Assembly (NCBI GenBank): GCA_964621645.1
Contig: CAZUMH010000001.1
Coordinates: 26,977 to 90,976 of the forward strand
DNA from: an uncultured bacterium
GTDB lineage: Bacteria > Zhuqueibacterota > QNDG01 > JAGLOF01
Length of the DNA: 64,000 bases
Direction: 5' to 3'
Translations under genes and position numbers: made by a program
The notes under the pieces: model-generated
Told to the model about the DNA's origin: nothing
Seen by the model: the letters and a program-made list of their open reading frames with translations, nothing else
Database searches by the model: none
Shown here: positions 11,064 to 62,472 of the stretch, piece by piece
Numbering within the stretch: position 1 is the first letter of the stretch
Layout of the letters: the number at the start of each line of letters is the position of its first letter

Positions 11064-11113
11064 TAAACGAAAAGTCACTATTCCATAGAACGGAGAAAAA
11101 AATAAAAAAACAC

Positions 11114-11142
11114 TTGCAATACCTAATTGAATTATGTATAAT
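11114..11142 (+). promoter_or_regulatory. Sigma70-like promoter (TTGCAA - 17 bp - TATAAT) immediately upstream of PadR
   Basis: TTGCAA at 11114-11119 and TATAAT at 11137-11142, with a 17-bp spacer and an A-rich tract upstream. The -10 element overlaps the first in-frame ATG at 11141, which suggests a short-leader or leaderless transcript using the ATG at 11153. Confidence 0.35.
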
Positions 11143-11485
11143 GCCTCTAGGTATGGGAAACAACTTTACAAGAGAACTGATCGCCGCTTCGACGATTCCG
11201 CTTATTCTGGCCGTGCTTCGGGAGGAAGAAAGCTACGGATACGCGATCATCAAGCGCGTCCGCGGGCTCTCGCAGGAGACCCTGGAATGGACCGAGGGGA
11301 TGCTCTATCCCGTCCTGCATCGGCTGGAAAAACAGGAACTGATCAAATCCTACTGGTCAAAAGAACAGGGCAGACGCAGGAGATACTATCGCCTCCTTCC
11401 GGCCGGAGTGGCGGAATTGGAGCGGCTTAAGAAGCAATGGACCTCTATCAATTCGACCCTGAACAGGTCATGGGGGCAGGTATGA
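11141..11485 (+). CDS. PadR-family transcriptional regulator
   Basis: Winged-helix PadR signature YGYAIIKRVRGLSQETLEWTEGMLYPVLHRLEKQELIKSYW...RRYYRLLPAG. The track ORF (10970-11485) has an unlikely 57-aa N-terminal extension, so an internal ATG (11141 or 11153) is preferred. The stop overlaps the next gene in ATGA fashion. Confidence 0.8.
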   Translation: MPLGMGNNFTRELIAASTIPLILAVLREEESYGYAIIKRVRGLSQETLEWTEGMLYPVLHRLEKQELIKSYWSKEQGRRRRYYRLLPAGVAELERLKKQWTSINSTLNRSWGQV

Positions 11486-14131: not shown

Positions 14132-14688
14132 TCTGCTTTTTCTGTTCAGCAGGATTTCATGCCTCTGCGGAGATATAACAGCCATTATATATTTTTTTTA
14201 ATTAGACTCTGAAATAATTGAAAATCCGTTTATCTACGGTTTGACAAAATATGCCCGCCTATGAAAAATTCTTGCGGTTTCAGACCTTTTTTTAACTTCC
14301 CTTATCGCTTTCCCATTCTCAATATAATGCCACGAAAATTTCCACAACCGCGGCCTCTTTTCTCGAGCTGATAGTAACTGCCAATATCATTCGGTTAAAC
14401 ACATGTTCACTGTAGATCTGGAGAAACAATGACAACCTATGAAAAGAGACTTGATAATATAAATAAATTCATCTTCTACTTAATCATTGTCTTAGCATTG
14501 TATCTGATAGGAAAGATACCCGGAAAGGGAATGCCGCTGCTTGAGGTCTCAGTACAACTTCTTGTTATCCTTGCAGGCACATTATCCTATCGGTACTGGC
14601 TTAAAAAAAGTGTATTCTCAGAAAGATGAACGAGTATATCACCTCCCCTCAAGCTGTGCTTGGGACGGAAAAGTAACTCACCACTCTG

Positions 14689-22824: not shown

Positions 22825-24720
22825 TTGAAGGTTCGCTCCCTCCCTTATCGGGCTGCCCTGATCCTGATGCTCCTCTCGGCACACTTCTGCCGGGCAGGGC
22901 ATGAAGTCAGCACCCTCCTCAAACTGGATTATTCGGCAGCAGCTGATATCCGCATCCGCAGCAGCAGCGACGGCAATGCCGGTATCGTCGCGTTCAGCGT
23001 TCTGGATGAGGCCCGGGTCGCCCTGCTCTGTATTACCACCGACTGCATTACTATCCACCGCATCCCAGATGGTCTGCTGCTGCAGACAATTCCCCTACTC
23101 AGCCACCCCAGGGATTTCATCTGGAACGGCAGCCGGTTTTTTGTCCGCTTCAGCGACAGGGTTCTGACAATGGACGCTGAAGGCGGTCAGCGGACCGAGA
23201 TACCCCTCAATCCCTCAATCAGGTTCATCTCCCGGCTGAAATGGCGGAATGGAACACTTTATGCCCTCACCGTGGATGGATACTCCTATCCGCTTTCCCG
23301 GAACGGACAGCCGCTGGAGACGGGCAGTCAAATCAGAGAGCGGATACGCGGGTGGGCATTGGATAATGGAATATCGGCATTTCCGGTCATTACCGCTGAA
23401 TTCAGCGGCGAAATCAGAGTCTACACCGGCCCGGACAGCACCTTTATCCCCGTCTCCTCCAGTACACCTCTTGGCTGCATGCGGATCATCGGCACAGCCG
23501 ACAGCTCCCTCTACCTGGAAATCCAGACTATCCTGCAGCAGGTCCCCTTGCGAGTCAGCCGTACGGTTGCCCGTCTCTCGATGAGTGGTGGACGGATCAT
23601 CGACACCTTCGAACCGCCCCGCAGTACTTTTTTCCCCATGACCGCTGATCTTATCATAAGGGAAAACACGCTCTATCACGCGCTCACAACACCGGAATCG
23701 ATCATTTTTTACCGGCTTCGCCAGGACTCCCGCCTCCGGAAGACAATTTTTCCTGCACCGCCGGAGGAGTACCATTATAATGATCATCTGCCGGAATGGG
23801 ACAGGATGAGCGTACCAAGTGAAGCTGTGCCGGGGCCGGCGGTACTCGATCCCATCAGCAGAAGTGCAATCATGGAGAATGCCGACAAGTATGTCCAGGT
23901 CGAATGGATATGCGGAGAGAAGAATACGAGCAACAATGAAGTGATCTCCCTTCCGGACGGTGCCCTTATTCAAACGCCTGCCTGGGTGACGGTCGGCCCC
24001 AAGAAGCGGACTCCCTACAAATGGGGAGGATTCACCCATGTCGATATATTCAGGGAACGAATCGAAGCGGAATGCTATGCAGGAGACGTCTACGGCGACA
24101 GGAATGATCCCCAGACCGTCAGTCCCGGAGACGCCTACTGCGTCGGTGTCGACTGCAGCGGATTCGTCTCCCGCGCCTGGAACCAGCCGGTGAAACACTG
24201 GACCGGATCACTCCCGGAAATCTCGGAACCTCTGGAGAGCTGGTCCGAGGTGCGGCCCGGAGACATAGCGGATAAAGTCGCGGGACATGTGATGCTGATC
24301 GTGGACAGGAGCAATTCCGGGGTTTTCAGTGTTGTGCACTCCAACGGGACTACCGAAAATGTGTGCTATCAGATAAAGACACTGTACGATCTCAGCGGAT
24401 ATGTACCCATGAAATACGCGGCGGTCATCGAAGACGGGTGGGAGCCCGAAACGGCGGAATGGACGGCCCTGTATCAGAATTTCCCTAATCCGATTCGCTC
24501 TGCCACCCAGATGCCATTCTACCTTACCTATGAATCGGACGTGACCATCAGCGTGTATAACCTTCTCGGACAGGAAGTCGCCGTTCCCTGCAGCGGACAT
24601 TTCAGCGAAGGCGCACACAGCATCGGCTGGGATCCCGGTGAACTGCCGTCGGGGATCTATTTCTACCGTTTGAAGACCGACTGGGACGTATTCATGAAAA
24701 AATGCATCGTCGTCGAATGA
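22825..24720 (+). CDS. T9SS-sorted secreted protein with NlpC/P60 (CHAP-like) cysteine peptidase domain
   Basis: TTG start with GGAAAGGA RBS and signal peptide. Cys/His pair in YCVGVDCSGFVSRAW ... GDIADKVAGHVMLIV (nt ~24130-24310) fits NlpC/P60 cell-wall hydrolases. C-terminal YQNFPNPIRSAT...VYNLLGQEV...SGIYFYRLK is a T9SS CTD. Confidence 0.75.
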   Translation: MKVRSLPYRAALILMLLSAHFCRAGHEVSTLLKLDYSAAADIRIRSSSDGNAGIVAFSVLDEARVALLCITTDCITIHRIPDGLLLQTIPLLSHPRDFIWNGSRFFVRFSDRVLTMDAEGGQRTEIPLNPSIRFISRLKWRNGTLYALTVDGYSYPLSRNGQPLETGSQIRERIRGWALDNGISAFPVITAEFSGEIRVYTGPDSTFIPVSSSTPLGCMRIIGTADSSLYLEIQTILQQVPLRVSRTVARLSMSGGRIIDTFEPPRSTFFPMTADLIIRENTLYHALTTPESIIFYRLRQDSRLRKTIFPAPPEEYHYNDHLPEWDRMSVPSEAVPGPAVLDPISRSAIMENADKYVQVEWICGEKNTSNNEVISLPDGALIQTPAWVTVGPKKRTPYKWGGFTHVDIFRERIEAECYAGDVYGDRNDPQTVSPGDAYCVGVDCSGFVSRAWNQPVKHWTGSLPEISEPLESWSEVRPGDIADKVAGHVMLIVDRSNSGVFSVVHSNGTTENVCYQIKTLYDLSGYVPMKYAAVIEDGWEPETAEWTALYQNFPNPIRSATQMPFYLTYESDVTISVYNLLGQEVAVPCSGHFSEGAHSIGWDPGELPSGIYFYRLKTDWDVFMKKCIVVE

Positions 24721-35377: not shown

Positions 35378-36526
35378 TTACCTAAGCAATATCAGCTTTC
35401 TTATCTTTGTATATTCTCCCGCCTTCATTTTGTAAAAATATACGCCGCTGGCCAATCCGTTGGGCTGCCAGACTGTTTCATGCAGACCTGCCGGCATGGT
35501 GCCATCAACCAGGGTTTCTATTTCCTGTCCGACAATATTATATACTTTGATCACGACGCGGCTCGCCTCGGCCAGCGTGAATTTTATGTTTGTTGACGGA
35601 TTAAAGGGATTGGGATAGTTTTGGTACAGATTAAAACCCCCGGGGATGACCTTGTCATCCTTCCCGATCAGTGTTGTACCGCTCCTTGTATGCAGGGTGA
35701 AAAAATCCCAGATGCTATCAGTTGCGGTGATTCCCCAGTTTGAAGGTCGCGGCCACTCATGCTCTCCGGTCGGATTTGTATAGAGGATGATGTCCGTCAA
35801 TCCGGTTGATGATGGCCATTGCCTTCCAATAATGCCATTTTCATTATATATAGTATCCGGATCCGAGCTGCAGTCATTGATGCGGCGCCATGCAGCCATG
35901 GTTGAATCCACCGGAGGGATGGCATTCGTGCTGTCACCCGCTCCATAATAGGGGAAGATATCATCACTCAAGCCGTGAAAATGAATGATCGGCACCGGGA
36001 ACTCGGGATTGCAGTATTCATACAGCATCTGTCCCGAACTCACTCCCATCGCCGCGATTTTATCTGATAGTTCCGCGGCAACACGGTAGGCCATGGCAGC
36101 TCCGTTGGAAAAGCCCATAACATAAATTCTGGTAGTATCGACATTATTGTTCATTATCATTGTGTCGATGAGTGCCGAGATAAATCCGATATCATCAGTT
36201 CCTTGAGTGATATCTTCATAGATGCCGCCGGCGTTCCACCAGGTCAGCAGGTTGTAACGGAGACCGTTGGGACAGGCGACGTAAAACTTTTCTTTTATGG
36301 CTTTCTGCACAATGGCCGTGGTTGCCATAAATGTCAATCCATCCGAACCTGAACCGTGCAATCCGATAATCAGGGGATACCCATCGAGATTGGGAGGCAA
36401 GGAAGATTCATACATCGCGTAAGTACGTGTAGTGTCTCCGTATACGAAATCCTGATACTGCCCGTACAGCAGTTGAGAGATAAGACAGATCCCGATGACA
36501 ATGAATAGTACCGTTCTCTTCGACAT
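35378..36526 (-). CDS. T9SS-sorted alpha/beta-hydrolase esterase (PHB-depolymerase/feruloyl-esterase-like, CE1-type)
   Basis: AAGGAGGG RBS and signal peptide. LIIGLHGSGSDG oxyanion region, nucleophile elbow GFSNGAAMA (GxSxG), His in FHGLSDD. C-terminal YQNYPNPFNPSTNIKF...VYNIVGQEI...SGVYFYKMKAG...KLILLR is a T9SS CTD. Confidence 0.8.
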   Translation of the reverse strand: MSKRTVLFIVIGICLISQLLYGQYQDFVYGDTTRTYAMYESSLPPNLDGYPLIIGLHGSGSDGLTFMATTAIVQKAIKEKFYVACPNGLRYNLLTWWNAGGIYEDITQGTDDIGFISALIDTMIMNNNVDTTRIYVMGFSNGAAMAYRVAAELSDKIAAMGVSSGQMLYEYCNPEFPVPIIHFHGLSDDIFPYYGAGDSTNAIPPVDSTMAAWRRINDCSSDPDTIYNENGIIGRQWPSSTGLTDIILYTNPTGEHEWPRPSNWGITATDSIWDFFTLHTRSGTTLIGKDDKVIPGGFNLYQNYPNPFNPSTNIKFTLAEASRVVIKVYNIVGQEIETLVDGTMPAGLHETVWQPNGLASGVYFYKMKAGEYTKIRKLILLR

Positions 36527-42326: not shown

Positions 42327-43286
42327 CTAGTAGCGGACGTTTATTTTTTTTTCTGCAGCGTTTTTACTGATTTTCTTCTCAAGCAATTGATAGATCGAAT
42401 CCGCGAACCTGACACCCAAATCCAGATACCCATTGCTGTCGTAATGCCAGGGATCGGAATAGTAATAATACCTGGTGGTCCTGACGATCATGGCATTTGT
42501 ATCCGTCCTGGCATACTTCTCTTCGGCGTACTGCACCAATTCACCGTAGTTCCAGACTTTCCCGTCACTGTCATTCCAGGAATCAGATATTTTGCCTATG
42601 ACAACAGGGAGATCATCGGTATGCAGGCTGGCCCGGATCAAATCCATCAGTCTCTTTAAATTTTGATAGTAACGATTTGCTATTTTTTCATTAAAGGATG
42701 CATCCGCTTCTCCCTGCATCCAGACGATCCCTGAAGGGATGAGGATATCTTCCCTTCCGTCTTTATCGATATCCTTGACCGACAGGGCCTGATGTACTGT
42801 TCTAAGGAAATGATCGTATTGATTGATTCCGTTTTCCCCTTCAAAGTCCGGTTCCCAGCAGCCGAAATACCCCGCTGCCATGGAATCGATGGAGGTTCCT
42901 CCCCGGGAGTATTTGATCAGGGCGATCTTTTCACCAGGATATAACTTCTGCAACCGTTTGGCAAATGCCAGCTCGACTCCAAACCGGTCGGAATAATGAT
43001 TCTTCTTGCCGTCGGAGGTAAAACCAACCCCGTGTCCAGGTTTCAATTTCTCCCAGAAGCCCAATCCCCCCGAACTGTCCCCGTCCGCGGCGGAATTGCC
43101 CTGGAATATCCAGACATTTGACCGGGTTTTAAAAGAATCCGGTAGATCTTTTACATAACCGTATCCATCCATATTCGACTGGCCGCCCAGGAAAAACACC
43201 CGGATTTCATTCCTGTTTTTCCCTTGGCCGAAGGCGAAGAATGGGAGTAACGCCACGCACAGGATGATCATTACTATTCTTTTCAT
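42327..43286 (-). CDS. SGNH-hydrolase carbohydrate esterase, sialate-O-acetylesterase (SASA/DUF303) type, putative acetylxylan esterase
   Basis: Signal peptide, then the hallmark GQSNMDG motif of SASA-domain esterases. C-terminal DPWHYD catalytic His region. Confidence 0.8.
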   Translation of the reverse strand: MKRIVMIILCVALLPFFAFGQGKNRNEIRVFFLGGQSNMDGYGYVKDLPDSFKTRSNVWIFQGNSAADGDSSGGLGFWEKLKPGHGVGFTSDGKKNHYSDRFGVELAFAKRLQKLYPGEKIALIKYSRGGTSIDSMAAGYFGCWEPDFEGENGINQYDHFLRTVHQALSVKDIDKDGREDILIPSGIVWMQGEADASFNEKIANRYYQNLKRLMDLIRASLHTDDLPVVIGKISDSWNDSDGKVWNYGELVQYAEEKYARTDTNAMIVRTTRYYYYSDPWHYDSNGYLDLGVRFADSIYQLLEKKISKNAAEKKINVRY

Positions 43287-43419
43287 GATCGCTCCTCTGA
43301 ATTAAATAATCTCAAGTCGATTTTGAATGAAAGATCAGTGTATGAAATATAATCAAATCAAACAGGTTTTGCAATGAAGGGATAGCGCCATTCACTGATC
43401 ACCTGATTCGAGGCGGCCC
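43287..43419. repeat. Promoter/5'-leader segment of the SGNH esterase gene, duplicated at 47889-48012
   Basis: About 75-80% identity over ~130 bp with 47889-48012. This includes the block AACAGGTTTTGCAATGAAGGGATAGCGCCATTCACTGATCACCTGATTCGAGGCGGCCC (43361-43419), which matches 47954-48012. Confidence 0.6.
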
Positions 43420-43576
43420 TACAATCTTTATCAACTTCGGTAGAATCACTTCCGGATGTACACCGCTCAACAATCTTCATCTTTTTAATTAAATGAATCG
43501 TAATGGTGGGAGTTTTAATTGCCACTGCTACTATTTTCCCGGGATCTAAAAGCGGTTAAAGAAATTTCGTTATTTA

Positions 43577-44513: not shown

Positions 44514-45512
44514 TCAGTGCCGCTGGGCCACATAAATATCCGACTCTATCTTATGTCCTTCATCATCATAGAATACATGGGTGAAATAGAGATTGCCCGC
44601 GGCGTCCAGACCCGGATCGCCGACATAGTTGGACACGATCTCTTCCGGAGTGCTCCAGGTATCACCGGATTTTCTTGATCTGAAAACTGCCGGCCCGCCA
44701 TAGCCCAGACCGCTTACTCTCGCGAACCAAAGATCAGCGCCATCCGCTGAAACAAAGGGTTGCCCTTCATTTCCGGACGTGTTAACCAGAGCGCCGAGAT
44801 TAACCGGTACGGACCAGCTCTCGCCCTGCCGGACTGTATGCCAGATATCGAGGTCGTTGCCCGAATTCGATTGTGCGCCAAAAAAAAGAGTCTTACCGCC
44901 CGCGGTCGGGTATAATTCACCAGCATCGAAATCCTGATTTAACTGTTCGCCGGCGTTCTGCCAGTTGGTCCAGGTCCCTTTGGAAAGTACCGCGGTCCAG
45001 ATATCCAGATCGCCGTAATTCCCCGCTCTGGCCGAACCGAACCAAAGTGTGTCTCCCTGGACGGCAAAAGGACCGTCCAGGTGCAGTTCACCCGGATCAG
45101 CCAGCCGGGCCCGTACCGGTTCCGTCCAGGAGGAGCCGTCCCAGGTGCACCACCACACACCGCTGACACCGTCGAAGAGCTGATCCTCAGCCGGAATGTT
45201 CCCGTCGGGCGTGAAGAAGAAGATGAATGTACTGCCGTCAGGAGTGATCACGGGGGCATCCTCAATACCGGCGGTGTTGATTGGACCGGCCATAGGGACT
45301 GTATCATAAAAGTCTGCGGAATGGAGCACGGGCGGAAAGTAATCAGTGGCGGGAGTCATTTTGACAGCATCCGCGGCAAGAGATTCCTCACGGGTCATTT
45401 CTTCCGAATCATCAGGATTTTGCTTGAGAGAACATCCGTAAAAAATAAAAATGACAGCTATCAAATGAATCTCAGGCGATAATGTCAACCACGAGAGCTT
45501 TTTTGTAATCAT
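44514..45512 (-). CDS. Lipoprotein with TolB-like PD40 beta-propeller repeats
   Basis: Lipobox FYGCS. ITPDGSTFIFFFT, LWFGSARAGNYGDLDIW and LFFGAQSNSGNDLDIW repeats. This is a paralog of 29247-30152. Confidence 0.65.
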   Translation of the reverse strand: MITKKLSWLTLSPEIHLIAVIFIFYGCSLKQNPDDSEEMTREESLAADAVKMTPATDYFPPVLHSADFYDTVPMAGPINTAGIEDAPVITPDGSTFIFFFTPDGNIPAEDQLFDGVSGVWWCTWDGSSWTEPVRARLADPGELHLDGPFAVQGDTLWFGSARAGNYGDLDIWTAVLSKGTWTNWQNAGEQLNQDFDAGELYPTAGGKTLFFGAQSNSGNDLDIWHTVRQGESWSVPVNLGALVNTSGNEGQPFVSADGADLWFARVSGLGYGGPAVFRSRKSGDTWSTPEEIVSNYVGDPGLDAAGNLYFTHVFYDDEGHKIESDIYVAQRH

Positions 45513-45597
45513 ATCAATGATTGGACTGATAATAATGATTATTCATAGGACAAACGAGTACGACCGAGCCAGGATCGATGGCAACAAACAAGAATTA

Positions 45598-46473
45598 CTA
45601 AATAAACTCACCCTGGGCCACGATGATACTTTTCCCACCGATAGAAATAGTAATGTTTTCACCGCTCTTTTCAGCTTTTAAAAGCAAAAGAGACGGCCTG
45701 CCGATTTCATACCCTTGTTCACTGCGGATATCGATGCTGTTTTTTCCAAAATAGCGATATTTCACCAGGTACCCCGCCAGGCAGCCGTTACCGCTGCCCG
45801 TTGCCGGATCTTCGGGAATTCCGTAATAATCAACAAATACCCGCACACTGATATCATTCTCAGGTTTGTGTGTTTCGGGGCAAAAAATCAGAACCCCCTT
45901 TGCCTCTGTATCCTTTATCAATGTAAAATACTTATCCTTTTCGAGTTTCGTCTTTTTCAGCGCTGCAATATTCTTCAACGGCACGATGAAAAAAGGCAAT
46001 CCGGTGGATACTTCCTGAATCGGAAAACGATTGTCAATATCAGTGAGATCTATACCAAGAATACGCGCAAGTTTTTCAGGTTCGTGTTGTTTACCGAAAT
46101 CCGGCTGAATTTGTTTCATCCAGCAACCGCCGTCTTTTAAAAAAGTAACTGGTATCCGGCCCACCTTCAAATTGAGCACAACATCACCGGATTGATCCGG
46201 AATAATGACGCTGTGAATGACATGGGCCGTTCCTAGGGTTGGATGACCAGCAAAAGGGACTTCTTCATTCGGCGTAAATATGCGAACATCAAAGCCGCCG
46301 TTGTTTTTTTCATCTGAAAGGATGAATGTGGTCTCAGAGAAATTTATCTCTCTGGCGATGCCTTGCATTTCTTCGCCACTGATTTTACCGGCGTAGCGAA
46401 ACACTGCCAGTTGGTTACCCGCATATTTTTTCTCGGCAAAGACATCAACGATGTAGAAAGTAAGTCCTTTCAT
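45598..46473 (-). CDS. PhzF-family isomerase (phenazine biosynthesis-like protein, DapF-like fold)
   Basis: FYIVDVFAEKKYAGNQLAVF...INFSETTFIL...RIFTPNEEVPFAGHPTLGTA shows the canonical PhzF motifs, including the catalytic Glu in SETTF. Confidence 0.85.
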   Translation of the reverse strand: MKGLTFYIVDVFAEKKYAGNQLAVFRYAGKISGEEMQGIAREINFSETTFILSDEKNNGGFDVRIFTPNEEVPFAGHPTLGTAHVIHSVIIPDQSGDVVLNLKVGRIPVTFLKDGGCWMKQIQPDFGKQHEPEKLARILGIDLTDIDNRFPIQEVSTGLPFFIVPLKNIAALKKTKLEKDKYFTLIKDTEAKGVLIFCPETHKPENDISVRVFVDYYGIPEDPATGSGNGCLAGYLVKYRYFGKNSIDIRSEQGYEIGRPSLLLLKAEKSGENITISIGGKSIIVAQGEFI

Positions 46474-46543
46474 GGTATTTACTCCGGAATGTGATGAAAT
46501 GTTTACTTTTATTCCGCTGTAGACCTGTGTATCATGTCGCTGT

Positions 46544-47374
46544 TTATCGCCGACGGGTCTCTACTAAAATCGTGAGTGCCATTTGGGACACAATCGTCGG
46601 AAGGTTTTGAGAGTCACCTTCATAATTATTACTCCATAAATGCGTATCCGTAGCTACTTCGATCAGGGTTACATTGATTCGTATTCTATCTCCTCTTGCC
46701 ATTACCGTTCCTTCTATAATTGCATCGGCGGACAGTTCACGCCCTATCTCGGTCACCTGTCGATACGGATCATAGTGTTGCATTACTGCCTCCCGCGATA
46801 TGACCTTTTTTACAGGCATTTGAGACAGGTTTTTAATAAGACTACCAGTTATCTCGTCAGCTAAGTTCTCGTGCCCAGGCTCATTTGATATGTTTGTGAA
46901 CGGTAACACTGCGATCGATTCGATCTTAGGAGCCGCTAAAGGAGCTGAAGGAAAATTGTACAAATAAATCATAGGCCAGACGAGGGCAATAAGGCCAATC
47001 ACGGCAAGAATAGCAACCGTGAAGCCTGTTGATTGTGAACCTGACGACAATTCTCCAAATCGATTGTCCCCTTGAGTGCCTGCGGAAAGGCCAGCCTCAA
47101 TAAAAGCCCAGAATGGACCAACAAGGGGAATAAGGGAAACGAAAATATACCACCCTGACTTATTCCGATCATGCCAGCGTTTAATCATGACCGCAATGGC
47201 TGGCCACGCTGACAAGAATATTACCGCACATGCGACTATTCCTCCGGCCCGTGTCATGAAATCAATGAGACAGGCAATATTCCAGAGTGCATAGATGGGA
47301 ATGAGCCCCCTAAGCCAAAACGTCCGACGATCGATGCGTCCCTTGGGCGATAAATATAGTTGTATGAATGGCAT
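46544..47374 (-). CDS. DUF805-domain inner-membrane protein with additional C-terminal extracytoplasmic domain
   Basis: GRIDRRTFWLRGLIPIYALW...MIKRWHDRNKSGWYIFVSLIPLVGPFWAFIE is the DUF805 (YhaH-like) core. A TM follows, then a ~130-aa C-terminal domain of unknown type. Confidence 0.7.
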   Translation of the reverse strand: MPFIQLYLSPKGRIDRRTFWLRGLIPIYALWNIACLIDFMTRAGGIVACAVIFLSAWPAIAVMIKRWHDRNKSGWYIFVSLIPLVGPFWAFIEAGLSAGTQGDNRFGELSSGSQSTGFTVAILAVIGLIALVWPMIYLYNFPSAPLAAPKIESIAVLPFTNISNEPGHENLADEITGSLIKNLSQMPVKKVISREAVMQHYDPYRQVTEIGRELSADAIIEGTVMARGDRIRINVTLIEVATDTHLWSNNYEGDSQNLPTIVSQMALTILVETRRR

Positions 47375-47520
47375 ATTTCACTCCTCCCAAATTGGTTTAC
47401 ATGTACCCAAACGTATATCCTAAATCATGTAAAAGAACTTGACTCAGCAGTAACAATATCCCCGGGTGAATGTATATATGAGAAACCTGATTATTCGCAA
47501 AACTAATAATCTTGTTCAGC

Positions 47521-47793
47521 AGGGGCTCATGCCCCTACGGAGTAAAATCAATACAAATTAAATTACTTTAATTCTTGTCCCGCTAGGGACAAAATGTTTA
47601 TATGACACCCTCCCCTATTGATCAAGTCCCGTTAGGGACGAAATAATATCTCTCCCCATGAAGGCTCATGACCTTGCAGATAAAAATATTATTGCACAAC
47701 ACTAAAAACCTGTCCCGGTATTCTTTAGGTCGGGAGGCATGACGAAGGACAATTTCCCCTCTCCGCGGGGGCTCATGCCCCTGCGGAGTAAGA
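47521..47793. repeat. Cluster of short hairpin-forming repeats (MITE/REP-like). Two copies of GGGGCTCATGCCCCT(A/G)CGGAGTAA flank two copies of (C)TTGTCCCG(C/T)TAGGGAC(A/G)AAAT plus degenerate relatives.
   Basis: Read directly: 47521-47547 and 47767-47793 are a direct repeat, each with a 5-bp stem GGGGC/GCCCC. 47575-47596 and 47624-47645 are each GTCCC-GNTA-GGGAC palindromes. Degenerate copies lie at 47661-47677 and 47709-47744. The right-hand copy sits exactly where homology of the truncated esterase fragment ends. Confidence 0.5.
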
Positions 47794-47888
47794 AAAAACA
47801 CCCGGATAAGATTCTGATTATTTGCTTGGCCGAAGACAAATAACGGCATAAGGATCAAGCAAAGGATAAGCATCCGTTTTATTTTCAT
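47622..47888 (-). pseudogene. Truncated duplicate of the 5' end (signal peptide + first ~33 codons) of the SGNH/SASA esterase gene 42327-43286
   Basis: MKIKRMLILCLILMPLFVFGQANNQNLIRVFFL aligns with MKRIVMIILCVALLPFFAFGQGKNRNEIRVFFL of the intact gene. Homology stops at the GGGGCTCATGCCCC repeat. The GQSNMDG catalytic motif is absent, and the upstream region is also duplicated. Confidence 0.55.
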
Positions 47889-48012
47889 GGCTGCTCCGCT
47901 GAATTAAATAGTATTACTGGTTATTACGATCGAAGGTTCCGTGTATAAAATATAAGCAAATCTAACAGGTTTTGCAATCAAGGGATAGTGCCATCCTCTG
48001 ATCATCTGATCC
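47889..48012. repeat. Second copy of the esterase promoter/leader segment (see 43287-43419)
   Basis: 47954-48012 (AACAGGTTTTGCAATCAAGGGATAGTGCCATCCTCTGATCATCTGATCCGAGGTCGCCC) matches 43361-43419 at ~85% identity. Confidence 0.6.
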
Positions 48013-48422
48013 GAGGTCGCCCAATGACCGGCATTATCATCATTGCAATCACCGCTGCGGGTTACCAAGTCAGGTATCTGCATAAACTGATTGAATAATA
48101 CTTCGATGGCGGATATGTGGCTTTTTCATGCAGATGTTCCTCAAGAGAGCCCAAACATACTGTCTTATCTAGCAGAAGATGCTCCGGCTTTCTACCGGGT
48201 TTGCTGATTCCTGTTAGCCTATATAGGCGGTTCGGGTATCCCACCTCAGATACTATGGGAGTTCTGGAAAATCCTTTTCGATTTAAAAAACTATTTGATA
48301 TATAATTTGAAAAAACTACATTTCAATAATATCGGTGGAGATATAAATATCGATTATAACCTCTCAAATAATAACTCAAAACATAAAGGAATTAACAAAT
48401 TAGTATCTGGAAAGGGCTTAAA

Positions 48423-49094
48423 ATGCGAAGATGTATTTTATATGCCGCAACCATTATCGTTCTCCTTATAATATGTGCTTGTAATAATAAAGAGTTCGCC
48501 AAAGTTTATTGGCAGGGAGATTTGATTCAGAATAAGACGGATGTAAAGTATTTATACTGGCAGGATGGAAACCAGTATTTTCGACAACAGGAAGACAGTG
48601 TGATCGTAGAGTTGACAGGGTTTTCAGTAAATAGAATGGTTTTACTGCTCATTTCCTTAAGAAATAACAAAAACCAAATATTTACTTTCCTTCCTAATGA
48701 ATGTACATTATCGTACGACTTTGACGACAATCCTATCGATTTAAAACCGAGCAGACCGAAAAATCTGGATAAAAAGCAGCTTTCTCTATTCAATTCCATC
48801 ATCAGCAGCGCGGGTACTATCACCAAGCTGATTATTAATATACCGGCAGACAAGCTTATCTCACAAAAAAGACAAAGCCCATTGTCGACCATCGATTCAG
48901 AGTATAGAGAGAATGAGATTAAAATCACCAAAAAGATATTCGTTGGAAATCATACGTTGATGCCGCAGTCAAGCTATGCGGGATTTCTGGTATTTGAATA
49001 CGAAAAAGAGTATCCATTAATAGACCGTTTATTCACTATTCAAATAGTAACCGCTCACCATCAGTTTACGGCATCGGGGACACTCCGTTTATAA
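48423..49094 (+). CDS. Hypothetical lipoprotein in AT-rich islet
   Basis: Lipobox LLIICAC. The surrounding ~1.3 kb (48050-49400) is markedly AT-rich relative to the contig. No known domain. Confidence 0.5.
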   Translation: MRRCILYAATIIVLLIICACNNKEFAKVYWQGDLIQNKTDVKYLYWQDGNQYFRQQEDSVIVELTGFSVNRMVLLLISLRNNKNQIFTFLPNECTLSYDFDDNPIDLKPSRPKNLDKKQLSLFNSIISSAGTITKLIINIPADKLISQKRQSPLSTIDSEYRENEIKITKKIFVGNHTLMPQSSYAGFLVFEYEKEYPLIDRLFTIQIVTAHHQFTASGTLRL

Positions 49095-49462
49095 TTATAA
49101 AATGTAATCGCCAAAAATTTTTGAGGTTAACCGGCCCTTCTTTATTGATATTTTCTTATTTTAACCGGAGACTAATGAATAAAAATATTACATATTCCCC
49201 TTCAAATCAACAATAATATAACTCTCGGAGGGAAGATCTGAATTGGTAAATTTCTTACCTTAATGAATATTGTCCATTATTCTCAGAAACTGTAGGATAT
49301 TCTCCAGAATTCTCACCATAGCAACGCACCCGATCTACTGACTCCATCCTCCTAACTGCCTTATATTTAATCTACTATGGCAATCTCATTCATTGGAGAA
49401 ATTATTTGGCACCGCATTTGTATGTTACGCCCGGAAACAAAGATCAAAGAAGGAGTAAAGAA

Positions 49463-57075: not shown

Positions 57076-60000
57076 TTACTTGAGGAAGATCATTTTCCTG
57101 ACCGCCTTGTACCCTCCCATCTCGATCCGATAGAAATAGATACCTGATGAAAGGCCTTTCGCGTTAAACACAACGATATGGCTTCCCGCTTCATACCGCT
57201 TATTGGTCAACACTGCCATTTCTTCTCCCAGGATGCTGTAGACTTTCAGCGTGACGTTACAGGCCTTCTTCACGGTAAATCGAACGGTCGTCTCCGGATT
57301 GAATGGATTGGGATAATTCTGCAGCAGCTCGAATTCGCCCGGGATGCCAATGTATTGATCCTTTTCGCTGACATCGGTGACATTGACATTGATCAGATAG
57401 TCCTCAACCTCACCATCCGCGGCTGGCCCGTTGAAAGTCAGACCTCCGGCGGCGTTGAATCGGAATCTGGCAAAGAGAACCGAATCAGTGAACGCCGAAT
57501 CAGGTATGGAATAATTGAGGAAATTATTACCGGCATGCAGAGGCTGATTGATAAATATCTGTTCACCGCCGTCAAGCCAGTCACCATCGCTGTTGAAGTC
57601 GATCCAGGCGTTGATGAATCCGGAATCAGAAGCTGAGGCTGTCAATGTAGCGCCGGTTCCCGGAGAAAGCGGCGACGTAAAGAATATCCCGTCATCATCA
57701 TTATCTCCCGCTATATCATCCCCGTCAGCCACATTGTTCGGCTGGCCGTCATTTTCGCTGTCAATCTTGTTGCCTAACATATACCCTGACACCCATTTAT
57801 GCATGGCACCACCGCCAGCCCAGAGGGTTGGATAGGGTGGGTCAGGAGCGTCACCGAAGTCAAATTTTGTATCCGCCGTGCTGATCAGGACTGCGTAATC
57901 CTCCACTTCACCGATGGGAGGCAGATCGAGCTGATCGGGATAATCAGAGAAATGGGCCGGACCATCATACGACAATCCGCCGGTATCGCTAAAACGGAAC
58001 CGGGCGTAGGTTATCCCGGGTGCCGCTGAAGCGGGCACGGCAATGGAGATCAGGTTCGTTCCCGAAGACAACTGACCGTCCTGCACGATCTGCTCCCCCG
58101 CGTCGTCCCAGCTGGAATCGGCGTTGAAATCAATCCAGGCATTCAAGATACCGGAACCGGAAGCGGTCACCTGAAGCTGCATGGTTTGTCCTGGAATCAA
58201 GGCTTTGGGGAAACTGACTCCATCATCATCATCCATACCATCATTATCATCCCCGGAACCGCCGGGACCCGGCTGACCGTCAGGATCAGGATCCACATAG
58301 TTCCCGAGATGAAATCCCGACTGAATCGTGTGAATCGCCCCGCCGTCAACATGCAACACGCCGTAGGCTCGCGAGGGAACATCTCCGAAATCGAAGACAT
58401 CGCTGTAGTCATCGATTTTAATCAGATAGTCCTCGGTCTCACCGTCCACGAAATCACCTGAGCCGTCCCAGCCCCAATGTTCCACCATGGTTTTCGTGAT
58501 TGTACATCTCATCCAGGCATACCCGGCATTGGGACCGATTCTGAAGGTCGGCGGGGATTTTGTAGAGAGCAAGCCGCCGTCAGAAATGTAGAAATTACGC
58601 AGTACCCGTTCGGGAATCGTCGGGCTGCCGTCACCCGGGTCGATGATATCCTTCCAGTCACCATCCTGATTCCAATCGATGGCAACATTGATGTAGGCGC
58701 CGGTCTCATGCATATTTATCACGGTCATAAGATCGAGGTTGACACCCCAGGCGGCAATCTGCCCGATACTCCCGATGGTCTCGGGCAGTCCGGTGCCGTC
58801 ATCATAAGCGACCACGGTTTCAGAGCCGGCTGAACCGGTGATGTGATGAGGGAATACTCCCCGTAATCCGGCATCCCATTTATAGGACATGAGGAGCGTA
58901 TTGTGGAAATCCTCATCCGCATCATAGAAACCGGTAAACAGAGGACTGAAGCCGGCGTTTCCCTCATATTCATAATCCACTGAGTAACCAAAGTACCGGT
59001 CGCCGCCGTGAGCGTGCCTGATATACCCTTCACCGGTAACGTTGACACCGGTGGGGAACTGTCCTGTGACTCCGGTCGAGGGATAGGCCAGCGCGCCTTC
59101 AGGCGCGTCACCGTAATCATACATCCCGTCGTAGGAGACGCAGATGAGATAATCCTCCGTCTCACCATCACTAAACGTACCGGAGCCGTCCCAGTCGGAC
59201 GCTACCGGGGTATCGGAAAGAGTAACCCGCATCCAGGCGAATCCTTCCGTATTGCCGATGGTAAATTGAGGCGGACTCAGATCGCTCACTTTCCCCGTAC
59301 CCGCGGGAATGGGGAAATTTTGCAGCACATGCTCATCGGTATCACCCCAAGTACCGTTCTGGTTCCAGTCGATGAGAATATTCAGATAAGCTCCATCAGG
59401 ATCGGTCACACTGTAATGAATATCGAGGTAATTGTTATAAGCGAGATATCCCCAATGCACCAGCTCACCGGTTTCACCCAGCACTCCTTTATCCTGATGA
59501 TAGGCACTGTAGGCCCAGTAATGCAGATACCCGCCGGTTTCACGGATCGTGTAGGCATGCGGCGAGATGAGACCGATATCGCCGGTTGCCAGGGAACTGG
59601 TTCTTACATCGTTCATTCCTTCATCCTGGTCGTAATCGCCGCCAAAGGGCGGCAGGACTCCGGCATTCCCGTCCGTCTCATAATCGACGGACCACCCCAG
59701 CTGCCTGGTACCGGCTGTACCGTGTCTGACAAATCCGGCCGTGGTAATATCCTCGAAGGTGGGGAATTGACCGGTGACACCCAGATGAGGATAGGCCTCG
59801 GCATTTTCCGGGGCATCACCGTATTCGTAGAGAATCTCCAGCCGGTCGAATATATTGATGCGGTAGTCTTCCACCTCTCCGTTGATCGCGTCTCCGCCCA
59901 CGGAATCGATCGGCAGCGTGGAGTATCGGAACCGGATATAGGCTGTTCCAGCATGGAAAAGGGAATCCTCCACGCTGATGTCGATTTCATTGACACCAGC

Positions 60001-62472
60001 CTGTACCTGAATCTTTGTCGCTTCATAGACAAAATTACCAGCTGCCAATGGCTTGCTGTTCTGCCCGTTCCCTGTGGATGGGTACCCGCACCAAATACCG
60101 AGGAATCCATTCTGGGAGGCGCTTACCACCGCGGTCACCGTATCTCCCAGTACCCAAGCGCCCTTAAAGGAGACACCATCATCGTCATCGTTCTGGTCGC
60201 TGCTGAAATCACCCATAGCCGTCGAATCAGGTGTGCCGTCCTCATCGGCATCCACGCCGGAACCGAGATAGATTTCTGGGTCAATCATATGGCGGGCGCC
60301 CCCCTGCTGTCGGAGCGTGGGGAACGGCCAAGGCGCATCTCCGTAATCGAACATCATCTTTCCGATGCGAACCCGGTAATCCTCAACCTCCCCGGCGTGT
60401 GAACTCGGTCCGTCGGAGCCTGGCAGCGCATCATCATCAGAGTAGCGGAAGCGGGCGTAAGTGTAGCCGATATGAACATCCGCCGGAATGAGACGACGGT
60501 AGGTGTTGGTTCCGTCAGAGGTAGTGATACCGTCAAAAATTTTCTCGCCTGCATCATTAAAATCGCCATCATGATTGAAGTCGATCCAGCCGTGCAGCAA
60601 GGGATAGAAAGGTGATGTATAGTTTCCCCAGGTGGTAATCTCGAAACTGCTCTCCTCTCCAGGAATCAGTTCGGAGAACACAACGCCGTCTTCATCATCA
60701 TGGCCGTCGGTATCATCCCCCAAGGCATCAGGATCGGGACTTCCATCAAGTTCATTGTCAGTATAAGTGGTACCCAGAAAAATGAGGATATTCCCCCGAT
60801 GACAGGCACCATCGGGCTCGAGTGTGCCGTATGAATCGGGAGCGTCACCGTAATCGAGATATGCTTCGGTTACGGTGCACAAGTAGTCCTCAACCTCCCC
60901 GTTGCCGCCACGGCCATAGGGGGTCAGGAGCGGATCGACGCTGTAACGGAAGCGGGCGTAGGTGTTGCCAAGTTCAGCGGTTTCCGGCACATTAAAATTC
61001 ACCGGGTATATCCCGGTGCCGTGGGTGTTATTATAATTAATTACATACTCCCCGGCATCGGCCCAGTCGCCATCCCGGTTCCAGTCGAACCAGCCGTGCA
61101 GGGTGCCGGTGCCTTTGCATGAAACAATCACCATTGACGCCTCTCCCGGAGTAAGCGCCATCCAAAAGAGAATGCCCTTTTCATCGTCTAGGTCGGTATC
61201 ATTGTCACCTCTGGCGTTAAGTGTAGGCTGGCCGTTGCCTTCCAAATCGGGAGGTGTGCCGGGCATGTAGGAGTAGAGATCAGACCCCCTGTCTACCAGA
61301 TAGATCGTATCGGAAACAGTGTGTCTGGCACCGTTATGGGACCGGAGGGTGGGGTAATGATATATGTCGTCATCAGGAGCGTCCCCATAGTCAAAGAAGT
61401 GGAAATTCTCGATGTAAAACTGCATATCCTCTACTTCACCTTTTGTCACCAGCCCGGTGGCGCCGGGAATGGTGTTCTCGGAATAACGGAAGCGGGCAAA
61501 GGTATTGCCTTCCTTGGCGTCAGCCGGAACGACGATACCGATATCATTGGCGCCCGCTCCAACCTGAGTATCTGCCGCCTCTTCACCGGCGTCATCCCAA
61601 TCACCGTCCTGGTTCCAGTCGAACCAGGCCTTGAGATATCCGCCTGATGATGCGGTAATCCTGACAAGGGCAGTGTCACCCGGGACAAGTTCCTGCAGCA
61701 ATTCGATGCCGTCCTCATCATCGTTCCCGTCATTGTCGTCTCCGGTGGCAGTGGAATCAGGCTGTCCGTCAGTGTCGGCGTCCACACCCTGTCCAAGATA
61801 GATACCTTCGGCGATGGTGTGTCTGGCTCCGCCTTCGTTCAACAGGGTCGGATAGGGTGCGGGAGCGTCACCGAAATCATAGGAATCAGGCGGTGATGAA
61901 TCGGTAATGGTCACCAGATAATCTTCCACTTCACCCTCATATCCATATCCGGTATAGGAAATACCGCCGTTGCTGTTGAAACGGAAACGGGCAAAAGTGT
62001 ATCCTGCGGCAGCACCCGAGGGGACAGAGATGTTGAGAGTATTATTACCGGCTGAAAGGGCTTGATTTGAAAAAATATGTTCACCCGCATCGGCCCAGTC
62101 GCCGTCATCGTTAAAGTCGAGCCAGGCGTTCAGGGTGCCGCTCGCAGAAGCAGTGACAACAATTGTGGCCGTACTGCCTTTAATCAGTGTGGAGAAACTG
62201 ACGCCGTCTTCATCATCGGTGTTATTATTGTCGTCTCCTTTTCCATCAGAAGAAGGTATTCCGTCATTTTCATCATCAACCTTGTTCCCCAAATAGAATC
62301 CAGCGACAATTTTATGGTAGGCGCCGTTGGAATTCAATATTGTCGGATAGGGATTGGGGGCATCTCCAAAGTCATAGAGAGTCTTCTGGGCAAACACGGC
62401 ATTCCCTGCCGCCAGCAAGAGAACAGCCAGCAGTATCCCTGTTTTTCGAACAACAGTACTAAACCTCATCAT
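57076..62472 (-). CDS. Giant T9SS cargo protein composed of nine tandem ~190-aa Asp-rich repeats, each ending in a GEVED motif (GEVEDY / GETEDY)
   Basis: Signal peptide. Nine units of the form Y-DFGDAP-x-PYPT...GARH...LG..VD.D.DG.P...GDD.DG.DDEDGV.F...L.PG...AW.DFN.DGDW.D.GE...ARFR(F/Y)S...GEVEDY. The C-terminus LLQNYPNPFNPETTVRF...VYSILGEEM...SGIYFYRIEMGGY..KMIFLK is a T9SS CTD. Confidence 0.85.
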   Translation of the reverse strand: MMRFSTVVRKTGILLAVLLLAAGNAVFAQKTLYDFGDAPNPYPTILNSNGAYHKIVAGFYLGNKVDDENDGIPSSDGKGDDNNNTDDEDGVSFSTLIKGSTATIVVTASASGTLNAWLDFNDDGDWADAGEHIFSNQALSAGNNTLNISVPSGAAAGYTFARFRFNSNGGISYTGYGYEGEVEDYLVTITDSSPPDSYDFGDAPAPYPTLLNEGGARHTIAEGIYLGQGVDADTDGQPDSTATGDDNDGNDDEDGIELLQELVPGDTALVRITASSGGYLKAWFDWNQDGDWDDAGEEAADTQVGAGANDIGIVVPADAKEGNTFARFRYSENTIPGATGLVTKGEVEDMQFYIENFHFFDYGDAPDDDIYHYPTLRSHNGARHTVSDTIYLVDRGSDLYSYMPGTPPDLEGNGQPTLNARGDNDTDLDDEKGILFWMALTPGEASMVIVSCKGTGTLHGWFDWNRDGDWADAGEYVINYNNTHGTGIYPVNFNVPETAELGNTYARFRYSVDPLLTPYGRGGNGEVEDYLCTVTEAYLDYGDAPDSYGTLEPDGACHRGNILIFLGTTYTDNELDGSPDPDALGDDTDGHDDEDGVVFSELIPGEESSFEITTWGNYTSPFYPLLHGWIDFNHDGDFNDAGEKIFDGITTSDGTNTYRRLIPADVHIGYTYARFRYSDDDALPGSDGPSSHAGEVEDYRVRIGKMMFDYGDAPWPFPTLRQQGGARHMIDPEIYLGSGVDADEDGTPDSTAMGDFSSDQNDDDDGVSFKGAWVLGDTVTAVVSASQNGFLGIWCGYPSTGNGQNSKPLAAGNFVYEATKIQVQAGVNEIDISVEDSLFHAGTAYIRFRYSTLPIDSVGGDAINGEVEDYRINIFDRLEILYEYGDAPENAEAYPHLGVTGQFPTFEDITTAGFVRHGTAGTRQLGWSVDYETDGNAGVLPPFGGDYDQDEGMNDVRTSSLATGDIGLISPHAYTIRETGGYLHYWAYSAYHQDKGVLGETGELVHWGYLAYNNYLDIHYSVTDPDGAYLNILIDWNQNGTWGDTDEHVLQNFPIPAGTGKVSDLSPPQFTIGNTEGFAWMRVTLSDTPVASDWDGSGTFSDGETEDYLICVSYDGMYDYGDAPEGALAYPSTGVTGQFPTGVNVTGEGYIRHAHGGDRYFGYSVDYEYEGNAGFSPLFTGFYDADEDFHNTLLMSYKWDAGLRGVFPHHITGSAGSETVVAYDDGTGLPETIGSIGQIAAWGVNLDLMTVINMHETGAYINVAIDWNQDGDWKDIIDPGDGSPTIPERVLRNFYISDGGLLSTKSPPTFRIGPNAGYAWMRCTITKTMVEHWGWDGSGDFVDGETEDYLIKIDDYSDVFDFGDVPSRAYGVLHVDGGAIHTIQSGFHLGNYVDPDPDGQPGPGGSGDDNDGMDDDDGVSFPKALIPGQTMQLQVTASGSGILNAWIDFNADSSWDDAGEQIVQDGQLSSGTNLISIAVPASAAPGITYARFRFSDTGGLSYDGPAHFSDYPDQLDLPPIGEVEDYAVLISTADTKFDFGDAPDPPYPTLWAGGGAMHKWVSGYMLGNKIDSENDGQPNNVADGDDIAGDNDDDGIFFTSPLSPGTGATLTASASDSGFINAWIDFNSDGDWLDGGEQIFINQPLHAGNNFLNYSIPDSAFTDSVLFARFRFNAAGGLTFNGPAADGEVEDYLINVNVTDVSEKDQYIGIPGEFELLQNYPNPFNPETTVRFTVKKACNVTLKVYSILGEEMAVLTNKRYEAGSHIVVFNAKGLSSGIYFYRIEMGGYKAVRKMIFLK
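57372..62390 (-). repeat. Nine tandem coding repeats (~570 bp period, diverged) of the GEVED-domain unit
   Basis: Periodicity of the DFGDAP and GEVEDY motifs seen in the translation. Copies are divergent at the DNA level. Confidence 0.6.

What the first reader, a model, noticed from the sequence alone, without database searches (positions are those of the whole stretch)
47521..47793. 270-bp cluster of two families of short palindromic repeats, possibly a miniature mobile element
Two families of repeats occur here:
- GGGGCTCATGCCCCT(A/G)CGGAGTAA at 47521-47547 and 47767-47793, each with a 5-bp stem GGGGC/GCCCC.
- (C)TTGTCCCG(C/T)TAGGGAC(A/G)AAAT at 47575-47596 and 47624-47645, each a GTCCC-GNTA-GGGAC palindrome.

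Degenerate copies of both families lie in between. The outer direct repeats bracket ~245 bp, and the right-hand copy coincides with the breakpoint of the truncated esterase duplicate. This is the hallmark of a non-autonomous insertion (MITE/REP/BIME-like) that inactivated the gene copy. These repeat families may be dispersed genome-wide and would be useful for strain typing or contig linking.
Basis: seen in the sequence. Interest (0 to 1): 0.5.

Follow-up and report, generated by a model that had tools for sequence, protein, structure and literature searches.

The report
Local cluster of short hairpin repeats
A 276-bp non-coding stretch holds real copies of two short hairpin-forming repeats next to a leftover fragment of an esterase gene, but it does not look like a miniature transposon and is best read as an ordinary patch of extragenic hairpin repeats at an old rearrangement junction.

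Summary
The repeats are real. Family A is a 30-nt direct repeat at 47516-47545 and 47762-47791 (90% identical), with a decayed copy at 47652-47683. Family B (GTCCCGYTAGGGACRAAAT) is at 47577-47595 and 47626-47644. A proposed third B copy is not significant. The right-hand A copy ends exactly where homology to the esterase promoter and first ~32 codons begins (47791-48052 matches 43189-43449, 73-75%).

The mobile-element reading fails most of its tests:
- There is no target-site duplication.
- No esterase sequence continues on the other side of the cluster.
- The 246-bp unit has no second copy in the window.
- Strict family A and B patterns found nothing more in the collections scanned, and no transposase lies in the window.
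- Only the hairpins are repeated; the linkers between them are unrelated.

Family A has one further diverged solo copy at 14143-14172, 12 nt after a transporter gene's stop codon. Two isolated look-alike hairpins in unrelated MAGs are near chance expectation.

Best reading (confidence about 0.45): low-copy, REP-like or terminator-type extragenic hairpins that multiplied locally. The strongest one, a 12-bp stem, marks the end-point of an illegitimate recombination that left the esterase fragment. The rest of this genome could not be searched, so a true REP family is not excluded. Interest is low.

The parts
47516..47545 (+). Family A, left copy (c1): TCAGCAGGGGCTCATGCCCCTACGGAGTAA. Imperfect hairpin around GGGGC-TCAT-GCCCC.
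   Evidence: -14.3 kcal/mol on +, -17.2 on -. Shares its left flank TGTTCAGCAGG with the solo copy at 14143.
47762..47791 (+). Family A, right copy (c2): TCCGCGGGGGCTCATGCCCCTGCGGAGTAA. The 12-bp stem spans 47761-47788. Its last base is the esterase homology breakpoint.
   Evidence: (-27.6 kcal/mol, z -5.6).
47652..47683 (+). Decayed family A copy (CTCCCCATGAAGGCTCATGACCTTGCAGATAA). It no longer forms a significant hairpin.
   Evidence: 72% over 29 nt; 1 of 2000 shuffles; z about 0.
47575..47596 (+). Family B copy 1: TTGTCCC-GCTA-GGGACAA, 7-bp perfect stem, followed by AAAT.
   Evidence: (-11.4 kcal/mol, z -4.8).
47624..47645 (+). Family B copy 2: GTCCC-GTTA-GGGAC, followed by GAAAT.
   Evidence: -9.3 kcal/mol; 0 of 2000 shuffles for B1 versus B2.
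47709..47740 (+). Doubtful third B-like element (TGTCCCGGTA...TCGGGAGG). Not significant.
   Evidence: D12, 9/10; 150 of 2000 shuffles; z +0.75.
14143..14172 (+). Solo, diverged family A copy (c3), 12 nt downstream of the stop codon of the SBF/ACR3-type transporter gene 12947-14131. Weak hairpin.
   Evidence: (83% over 30 nt, E 0.015); 43.7 bits, but this copy was in the model's training set.
47791..48052 (-). Truncated duplicate of the SASA esterase locus: upstream region, sigma-70-like promoter (TTGCAA-17-TATATT, 47977-47949), start codon at 47888 and the first ~32 codons.
   Evidence: The promoter block 47940-47989 is 88% identical; the coding part is 63-75%.
43189..43449 (-). Counterpart of the duplicated segment at the intact SASA esterase gene (42327-43286).
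46544..47374 (-). DUF805 membrane-protein gene. It is the first gene downstream (minus strand) of the esterase fragment and the hairpin cluster.

Best explanation
The stretch 47516-47791 is a local cluster of short stem-loop repeats of two kinds. It lies in a ~1-kb non-coding gap between the divergent genes DUF805 (minus strand) and a 223-aa ORF (plus strand).

Shown: the repeated units are the hairpins themselves (A about 30 nt, B about 19-22 nt), not the sequence between them. Family A has one more diverged solo copy directly behind the stop codon of a transporter gene 33 kb away. The right-hand A hairpin (12-bp stem) sits exactly at the point where a 262-nt partial duplicate of the SASA-esterase promoter plus first ~32 codons ends.

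Inferred: A, and perhaps B, are low-copy extragenic palindromes of REP-like or terminator type. They multiplied over a short range by small duplications or gene conversion, and copies then decayed to different degrees. The strong hairpin was the end-point of an illegitimate recombination event, either a deletion of most of a paralogous esterase or a patch duplication. T-run microhomology exists at the junction (TTTTTTCTTAC versus GATTTTAC). Stable hairpins are established hot spots for replication slippage and deletion end-points.

Likely consequence, not tested: the hairpins lie between the retained esterase-type promoter and the DUF805 gene. They could act as a transcription or RNA-stability barrier there.
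For: - Repeats are real and far beyond chance.
- Only the hairpins are similar. Linkers and flanks do not exceed shuffles and TRF finds no tandem array.
- A third, diverged A copy lies 12 nt after a stop codon and shares the left flank with c1.
- Other gene-end hairpins in the window have the same style, for example GGCGGGC-TCAC-GCCCGCC at 8099-8130 between convergent genes.
- The homology breakpoint is sharp at 47791, the last base of the A repeat.
- No esterase remainder lies beyond the cluster.
- No TSD. No mobile-element genes in the window.
- Rfam finds nothing.
- The left A copy folds better on the - strand and the right A copy slightly better on the +, so there is no consistent transcript-strand signal.
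Against: - The hairpins are not canonical intrinsic terminators. No U-tract follows c1 or c2 on either strand.
- With only 64 kb of this genome available, copy number cannot be measured, so 'low-copy' is an assumption.
- High identity of the outer A pair (90%) and of B1/B2 (89%) beside unrelated linkers could equally mean selection on the hairpins (function) or independent insertion of small mobile units.
- The recombination end-point role rests on one junction.
Confidence: 0.45

Rival explanations
1. A non-autonomous transposable element bounded by the two A copies. It could be a MITE, or a hairpin-ended IS200/IS605-type derivative (PATE-like), which carries similar subterminal hairpins in direct orientation and makes no target-site duplication. 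It would have landed in, or next to, an esterase copy.
For: - Two 90%-identical hairpins in direct orientation bracket 246 bp, and the right end coincides with a gene breakpoint.
- Absence of a TSD is compatible with IS200/IS605-type elements (established knowledge of that family).
- TTAC precedes both hairpins on the minus strand.
- A solo A copy exists elsewhere in the window.
Against: - No esterase sequence continues past the left end.
- There is no second copy of the composite unit in the window.
- The strict A pattern found one hit in JGI metagenome contigs and none in IMG/VR. The looser A pattern found 20 single hits in 185,579 GTDB species genomes, about the number I calculated for chance. 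The same strain is present in JGI sample 3300031277.
- No Y1 transposase, TnpB or other transposase among the 38 ORFs scanned.
- For a MITE, the TIRs are only a by-product of palindromy (73% inverted versus 90% direct) and no TSD is present.
Confidence: 0.15
2. A decayed tandem array of a composite A+B unit of about 110-140 nt, made by local tandem duplication and since eroded except at the hairpins.
For: - A and B alternate along the stretch (A, B, B, A, B?, A).
- A-to-B spacing is similar in two units, about 55 nt and about 51-57 nt.
- Copies show different degrees of decay.
Against: - TRF finds no array even at minimum score 30.
- Linkers after and before the hairpins are no more similar than shuffles.
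- The third B, which the alternation argument needs, is not significant.
- The solo copy at 14143 shows that A can exist without B.
Confidence: 0.15
3. A cis-regulatory region. The palindromes would be operator sites for dimeric DNA-binding proteins, or hairpins of a long 5' leader or attenuator for the DUF805-PhzF gene string, transcribed from the retained esterase-type promoter.
For: - The promoter block of the duplicate is its best-conserved part: 88% versus 63-75% for the coding part. It matches TTGCAA-17-TATATT and points through the cluster toward DUF805.
- B1 is an 18-bp perfect palindrome with a 4-nt centre.
- The region folds far better than shuffles on both strands.
Against: - Good folding follows trivially from the palindromes and shows no strand preference.
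- No Rfam family matches.
- The only available relative with a DUF805-PhzF pair (48% aa identity) has an unrelated upstream region without these motifs.
- No regulator gene is adjacent.
- A separate promoter-like site lies between the cluster and DUF805 (47518-47490).
Confidence: 0.12
4. Site-specific recombination sites. The two A copies would flank an excisable or invertible 246-bp segment, as a phase-variation switch or a cassette.
For: - Two near-identical sites lie between divergent genes.
- Metagenome contigs of the same strain end near the locus, at 48108, 43340 and 43348.
Against: - No recombinase in the window.
- The asymmetric centre (TCAT) is in direct orientation, so inversion is not expected.
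- The sites lack the integron attC R''/R' motifs RYYYAAC and GTTRRRY (read directly).
- The contig ends lie in the duplicated promoter segment, not at the A copies.
Confidence: 0.03

Closest known systems
REP (repetitive extragenic palindromic) sequences and BIME mosaics of enterobacteria and pseudomonads
   Same: - Imperfect palindromes of 20-40 nt in non-coding DNA.
- Two different palindromic unit types clustered with short linkers.
- One solo copy directly after a stop codon.
- One copy (c1, minus strand) has GTAG at the foot of the inner stem.
   Different: - Only 2 loci in 64 kb for A and 1 for B. Genome-wide copy number is unknown.
- The units are all in direct orientation, whereas BIME units alternate in orientation.
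- GTAG is not conserved (GCAG in c2 and c3).
- No RAYT gene is seen.
MITEs (miniature inverted-repeat transposable elements)
   Same: Size (about 276 bp), no coding capacity, terminal sequences that can be read as inverted repeats, and position next to a disrupted gene.
   Different: - No target-site duplication.
- The ends are primarily direct repeats.
- The gene does not resume on the far side.
- There is no second copy of the unit anywhere searched.
IS200/IS605-derived palindrome-associated elements (PATE-like)
   Same: Similar subterminal hairpins at both ends in direct orientation, and no TSD.
   Different: - Single copy.
- No TnpA or TnpB in the window.
- The hairpin abuts the junction within 3 nt, rather than about 10-20 nt as recalled for IS608 (from memory, not tested here).
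- The internal part carries further copies of the same hairpin.
Intrinsic (Rho-independent) terminator hairpins
   Same: GC-rich stem with a tetraloop, similar in style to other gene-end hairpins in this window (8099-8130). The solo copy lies 12 nt after a stop codon.
   Different: No U-tract follows c1, c2 or c3. The cluster lies between divergent genes, where no terminator is needed.

Membership tests
REP / BIME | Imperfect palindrome of about 20-40 nt, extragenic | tested here: met
   A is 30 nt and B 19-22 nt. All copies lie outside the long ORFs. c3 lies 12 nt after a stop codon.
REP / BIME | High copy number dispersed around the genome (tens to hundreds) | tested here: inconclusive
   Within 64 kb, A is at 2 loci and B at 1. 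The rest of this genome is not in the searchable collections. The strict A pattern gave 1 hit in JGI metagenome contigs.
REP / BIME | Conserved GTAG-type tetranucleotide at the 5' foot of the hairpin | tested here: inconclusive
   On the minus strand c1 has GTAG, while c2 and c3 have GCAG.
REP / BIME | Cognate RAYT (Y1 transposase-like) gene in the genome | tested here: inconclusive
   No match among the 38 window ORFs scanned against Pfam. The rest of the genome is unavailable.
REP / BIME | BIME: successive palindromic units in alternating orientation | tested here: not met
   All three A copies and both B copies are in the same orientation.
MITE | Terminal inverted repeats | tested here: inconclusive
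   The 33-nt arms are 73% complementary only because each end is itself a palindrome. The direct identity is higher, 90%.
MITE | Target-site duplication flanking the element | tested here: not met
   The flanks ...AATCTTGT and GAAAAAAC... share nothing.
MITE | Multiple copies of the whole element | tested here: not met
   There is no second copy of the unit in the window. No B copy was found in the window, the fetched loci or IMG/VR. The whole genome is untested.
MITE | Interrupted target resumes on the other side (for an insertion into a gene) | tested here: not met
   tblastn of the esterase finds residues 6-36 only.
IS200/IS605-type PATE | Similar subterminal hairpins at both ends in direct orientation, no TIR and no TSD | tested here: met
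IS200/IS605-type PATE | Multiple copies, plus a cognate Y1 transposase with matching end hairpins | tested here: inconclusive
   None in the window. The genome is not available.
Intrinsic terminator | GC-rich hairpin followed directly by a U-tract, downstream of a gene | tested here: not met
   The consensus scan flags only B1, weakly (AATGTTTATA tail). None of the A copies is flagged.
Integron attC / CALIN | R'' RYYYAAC ... GTTRRRY R' boundaries on an imperfect palindrome | tested here: not met
   Read directly from the sequence: neither A nor B carries these motifs.
Rfam RNA families | Match at gathering score | tested here: not met
   No match in the window. The best local E-values are 0.28 or worse, to unrelated families.

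The most novel reading that the evidence does not exclude
A and B could be the palindromic units of an undescribed REP/BIME-like or hairpin-ended (IS200/IS605-type) repeat family in an uncultured bacterium whose T9SS-sorted proteins suggest the FCB group. In that case they would be mobilised in trans by a Y1 transposase encoded elsewhere in the genome, and the esterase fragment would mark a rearrangement promoted by the element's end.
Probability: 0.15. Interest if true: 0.35.

Novelty: new member of a known kind. Interest (0 to 1): 0.15.

Why it matters
It matters little by itself. If the hairpins prove to be dispersed in the full genome, they would be a handy strain marker and a new example of REP-type repeats outside the proteobacteria. 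As things stand, the locus mainly documents how a stable hairpin coincides with the end of a partial gene duplication. It also warns annotators that the 88-aa ORF at 47622-47888 is a fusion artefact: an esterase signal peptide fused to repeat sequence.

Tried and rejected
- Rfam, whole window at gathering score and the locus at E up to 10: nothing relevant. Also nothing on the two look-alike loci.
- tRNA/tmRNA scan: none.
- TRF at minimum score 30: no tandem array in the cluster.
- GTDB genome scan with GCNGGNNNTCATGCCNCTNCGGAG: 20 single hits. My calculated chance expectation is about 17. Nineteen lie in loci of 42-72% GC with no hairpin. One (L014, a 33% GC MAG) is the perfect-hairpin solution of the pattern, in an intergenic region. 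Any perfect hairpin that satisfies the pattern must have this sequence, so I do not take it as homology.
- JGI metagenome scan with GGGGCTCATGCCCCTNCGGAG: 1 hit (L023, a GC-rich contig, first of three hairpins after a stop codon), near chance expectation.
- IMG/VR scans for A and for B: 0 hits each.
- Covariance model of A against the window (filters off) and against all relevant loci: no new copies.
- Synteny in relatives: the nearest DUF805 homologue is only 48% identical and has a different upstream gene (EamA) without the repeats. The nearest homologues of the 223-aa ORF (42-49%) sit on 1.3-2 kb contigs in other contexts.
- Exact-protein look-ups to recover alternative assemblies across the locus: the contigs of the same strain stop at 48108, 43340 and 43348 and never cross the cluster.
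- Homology of the flanks of c1 and c3, and of the linkers between hairpins: not above shuffles.
- Similarity of the small + strand ORF ending just before c1 to the C-terminus of the transporter preceding c3: none.
- Full-text search for the core strings: 0 papers.
- Cluster look-up for an accession or organism name: none given.

Full report
**Observation**

- The family A string GGGGCTCATGCCCCTRCGGAGTAA occurs at 47522-47545 and 47768-47791 and nowhere else in the window, even with 3 mismatches. No shuffle gave any match.
- The full A repeat is 30 nt (47516-47545 and 47762-47791), 90% identical, 246 nt start to start.
- The family B core GTCCCGYTAGGGAC is at 47577 and 47626. Extended, it is 19 nt at 89% identity, with 0 of 2000 shuffles scoring as well.
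- The generic hairpin cores GGGGC-N4-GCCCC and GTCCC-N4-GGGAC are each found only here in 64 kb.
- A decayed A copy lies at 47652-47683 (72% over 29 nt; 1 of 2000 shuffles).
- The supposed decayed B at 47711 is only a 9/10 match and is not significant (150 of 2000).

The right A copy forms a 12-bp stem (-27.6 kcal/mol, z -5.6). The left A copy, B1 and B2 also fold significantly. The decayed A copy and the doubtful B do not.

**Surroundings**

The cluster lies in a ~1050-nt gap. On one side is a DUF805 membrane-protein gene (46544-47374, minus strand). On the other is a 223-aa ORF with no Pfam match (48423-49094, plus strand).

Immediately right of the cluster, 47791-48052 is 73-75% identical to 43189-43449. 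That segment is the upstream region, start codon and first ~32 codons of an intact SASA-type carbohydrate esterase gene (42327-43286, minus strand). Identity along the duplicate is as follows:

| Part of the duplicate | Identity |
|---|---|
| Block with a sigma-70-like promoter (TTGCAA-17-TATATT, 47977-47949) | 88% |
| Coding part | 63-75% |
| Cluster side of 47791 | 28% |

The 88-aa ORF at 47622-47888 is the esterase signal peptide fused to translated repeat sequence.

**Is it an insertion?**

If a ~276-bp element had inserted into an esterase copy, the rest of the esterase should resume beyond the left A copy. It does not.

- tblastn with the intact esterase finds only residues 6-36 at 47873-47781. 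It finds nothing else near the locus, and the DUF805 start lies 140 nt beyond the left repeat.
- The sequences flanking the outer repeats share no duplication.
- The two ends are 90% identical as direct repeats and only 73% complementary as inverted repeats. The complementarity follows from each copy being a palindrome.

**Is it dispersed?**

- blastn of 47301-48300 against the window found one extra A-like copy at 14143-14172 (83% over 30 nt, E 0.015). It lies 12 nt after the stop codon of an SBF/ACR3-type transporter gene. It shares the left flank TGTTCAGCAGG with the left copy but folds weakly.
- A covariance model built from the four A copies and run with filters off found no further copy in 64 kb.
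- B has no further copy.
- A scan of 185,579 GTDB species genomes with an 18-specified-base A pattern gave 20 single hits, against my calculated chance expectation of about 17. Nineteen lie in loci of 42-72% GC with no hairpin. One (L014, a 33% GC MAG) is the perfect-hairpin solution of the pattern in an intergenic region.
- A scan of JGI metagenome contigs with a 20-base pattern gave a single hit: L023, a GC-rich contig, first of three hairpins after a stop codon.
- IMG/VR gave none for A or B.
- Neither look-alike locus has further copies or an Rfam match.
- The window's own locus was not recovered in these scans, so its genome is not in the genome collection. The same strain is present in JGI sample 3300031277 and in SRR8556602 (99.97-100% identity), but only as short contigs that stop at 48108, 43340 and 43348.

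Genome-wide copy number therefore remains untested. What can be said is that no public sequence searched here carries a family of conserved A copies.

**Internal structure**

A and B roughly alternate, which suggests a decayed tandem array of an A+B unit. However, TRF finds nothing. The linkers before and after the hairpins are no more alike than shuffled sequence. The alternation argument also needs the non-significant third B. What is repeated is the hairpins.

Folding the whole stretch gives z about -5 to -6 on both strands. This follows from the palindromes. The left A copy folds better on the minus strand and the right A copy slightly better on the plus strand, so there is no consistent transcript-strand signal. 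Rfam has no match and there are no tRNAs.

**Genomic context**

Pfam scans of 38 ORFs found no transposase, integrase, RAYT or recombinase. Several proteins carry the T9SS sorting domain, which suggests an FCB-group bacterium (my inference from what is known of that domain's distribution). Other gene-end hairpins in the window have the same GC-stem and TCAN-loop style, for example 8099-8130.

The nearest available relative with a DUF805-PhzF pair (48% aa identity) has an EamA gene and an unrelated 460-nt spacer upstream, without these motifs. Homologues of the 223-aa ORF are equally distant and sit in other contexts.

**Interpretation**

The best-supported reading is a local cluster of short extragenic stem-loop repeats, REP-like or terminator-type, at an old rearrangement junction. 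The strongest hairpin marks the end-point of the event that left the esterase fragment. That hairpins promote slippage and deletion end-points is established knowledge; its application here is inference from a single junction with T-run microhomology.

Three rivals remain open: a hairpin-ended non-autonomous element, a decayed A+B tandem array, and a regulatory leader or operator region. A recombination switch is unlikely.

In form the cluster resembles REP/BIME. It fails the BIME orientation rule and the MITE criteria (TSD, multi-copy, resumed target). REP membership cannot be decided without the rest of the genome.

**Verdict**

The mobile-element interpretation is only partly supported: the repeats are REP-like in form, but an insertion is not supported. 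The feature is ordinary and interest is low (0.15).

Noticed in passing
window 43189-43449 and 47791-48052: The two copies of the esterase promoter/5' segment are direct repeats that flank a ~4.3-kb block. On the minus strand the block runs: hairpin cluster, DUF805, PhzF-like, PD40 repeat protein, DUF2461. A single-crossover (Campbell-type) integration, or a patch duplication followed by deletion, would leave this layout. At 73-75% identity the event is old, or the copies are paralogous.
   Followed up: partly
window 47940-47989 versus 43340-43390: The promoter-like block (TTGCAA-17-TATATT) is the best-conserved part of the duplicate: 88% versus 63-75% for the coding part. This suggests the orphan promoter is still under selection and may drive transcription toward DUF805.
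   Followed up: partly
window 43340-43348 and 48108: Independent metagenome contigs of the same strain (Logan SRR8556602: L024, L029; JGI 3300031277: L001) all end inside or just beside the two copies of the duplicated segment. None spans the hairpin cluster. This hints at assembly ambiguity or population variation there.
   Followed up: no
window 45350-49400: GC content drops to 32-46% across PhzF, DUF805, the intergenic gap and the 223-aa ORF. The flanking genes are at 55-60% (44.6-45.3 kb and beyond 49.5 kb). The composition is heterogeneous and could reflect acquired DNA.
   Followed up: no
window 11029-11063: A perfect 15-bp-arm palindrome, TGACCCTGTCAGGGT-CTGGA-ACCCTGACAGGGTCA, lies at the 5' end of the PadR-family ORF (10970-11485). 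The PadR domain begins only at residue 79, so the palindrome probably sits upstream of the true start. It is a candidate operator.
   Followed up: no
window 8099-8130: A perfect 14-bp stem, GAAAGAAGGCGGGC-TCAC-GCCCGCCTTCTTTC, lies between the convergent 2633-aa protein gene and a Ser/Thr kinase gene. It looks like a bidirectional terminator. Its GGGC-TCAN-GCCC core is in the same style as family A.
   Followed up: no
L014 1006-1042 (MAG binchicken_co89_50, 33% GC) and L023 813-839 (Ga0315298_1038740): Isolated intergenic hairpins with the identical core CAGGGGCTCATGCCCCT-CGGAGT occur in two unrelated organisms, each downstream of a gene. In L023 it is the first of three tandem hairpins with TCAT, TTCA and TCAA loops. 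This is probably convergence or chance given the search space, but it is unexplained.
   Followed up: partly
window 139-8040, 22825-24720, 35378-36526, 57076-62472: These proteins, some very large, either carry T9SS C-terminal sorting domains (the 1798-aa GEVED-repeat protein, the 631-aa and the 382-aa esterase-like proteins) or are multi-domain surface proteins (the 2633-aa Big_5/matrixin/beta-propeller protein). They suggest an FCB-group organism rich in secreted glycan-degrading functions (GH3, GH43, sulfatase, SASA nearby).
   Followed up: no
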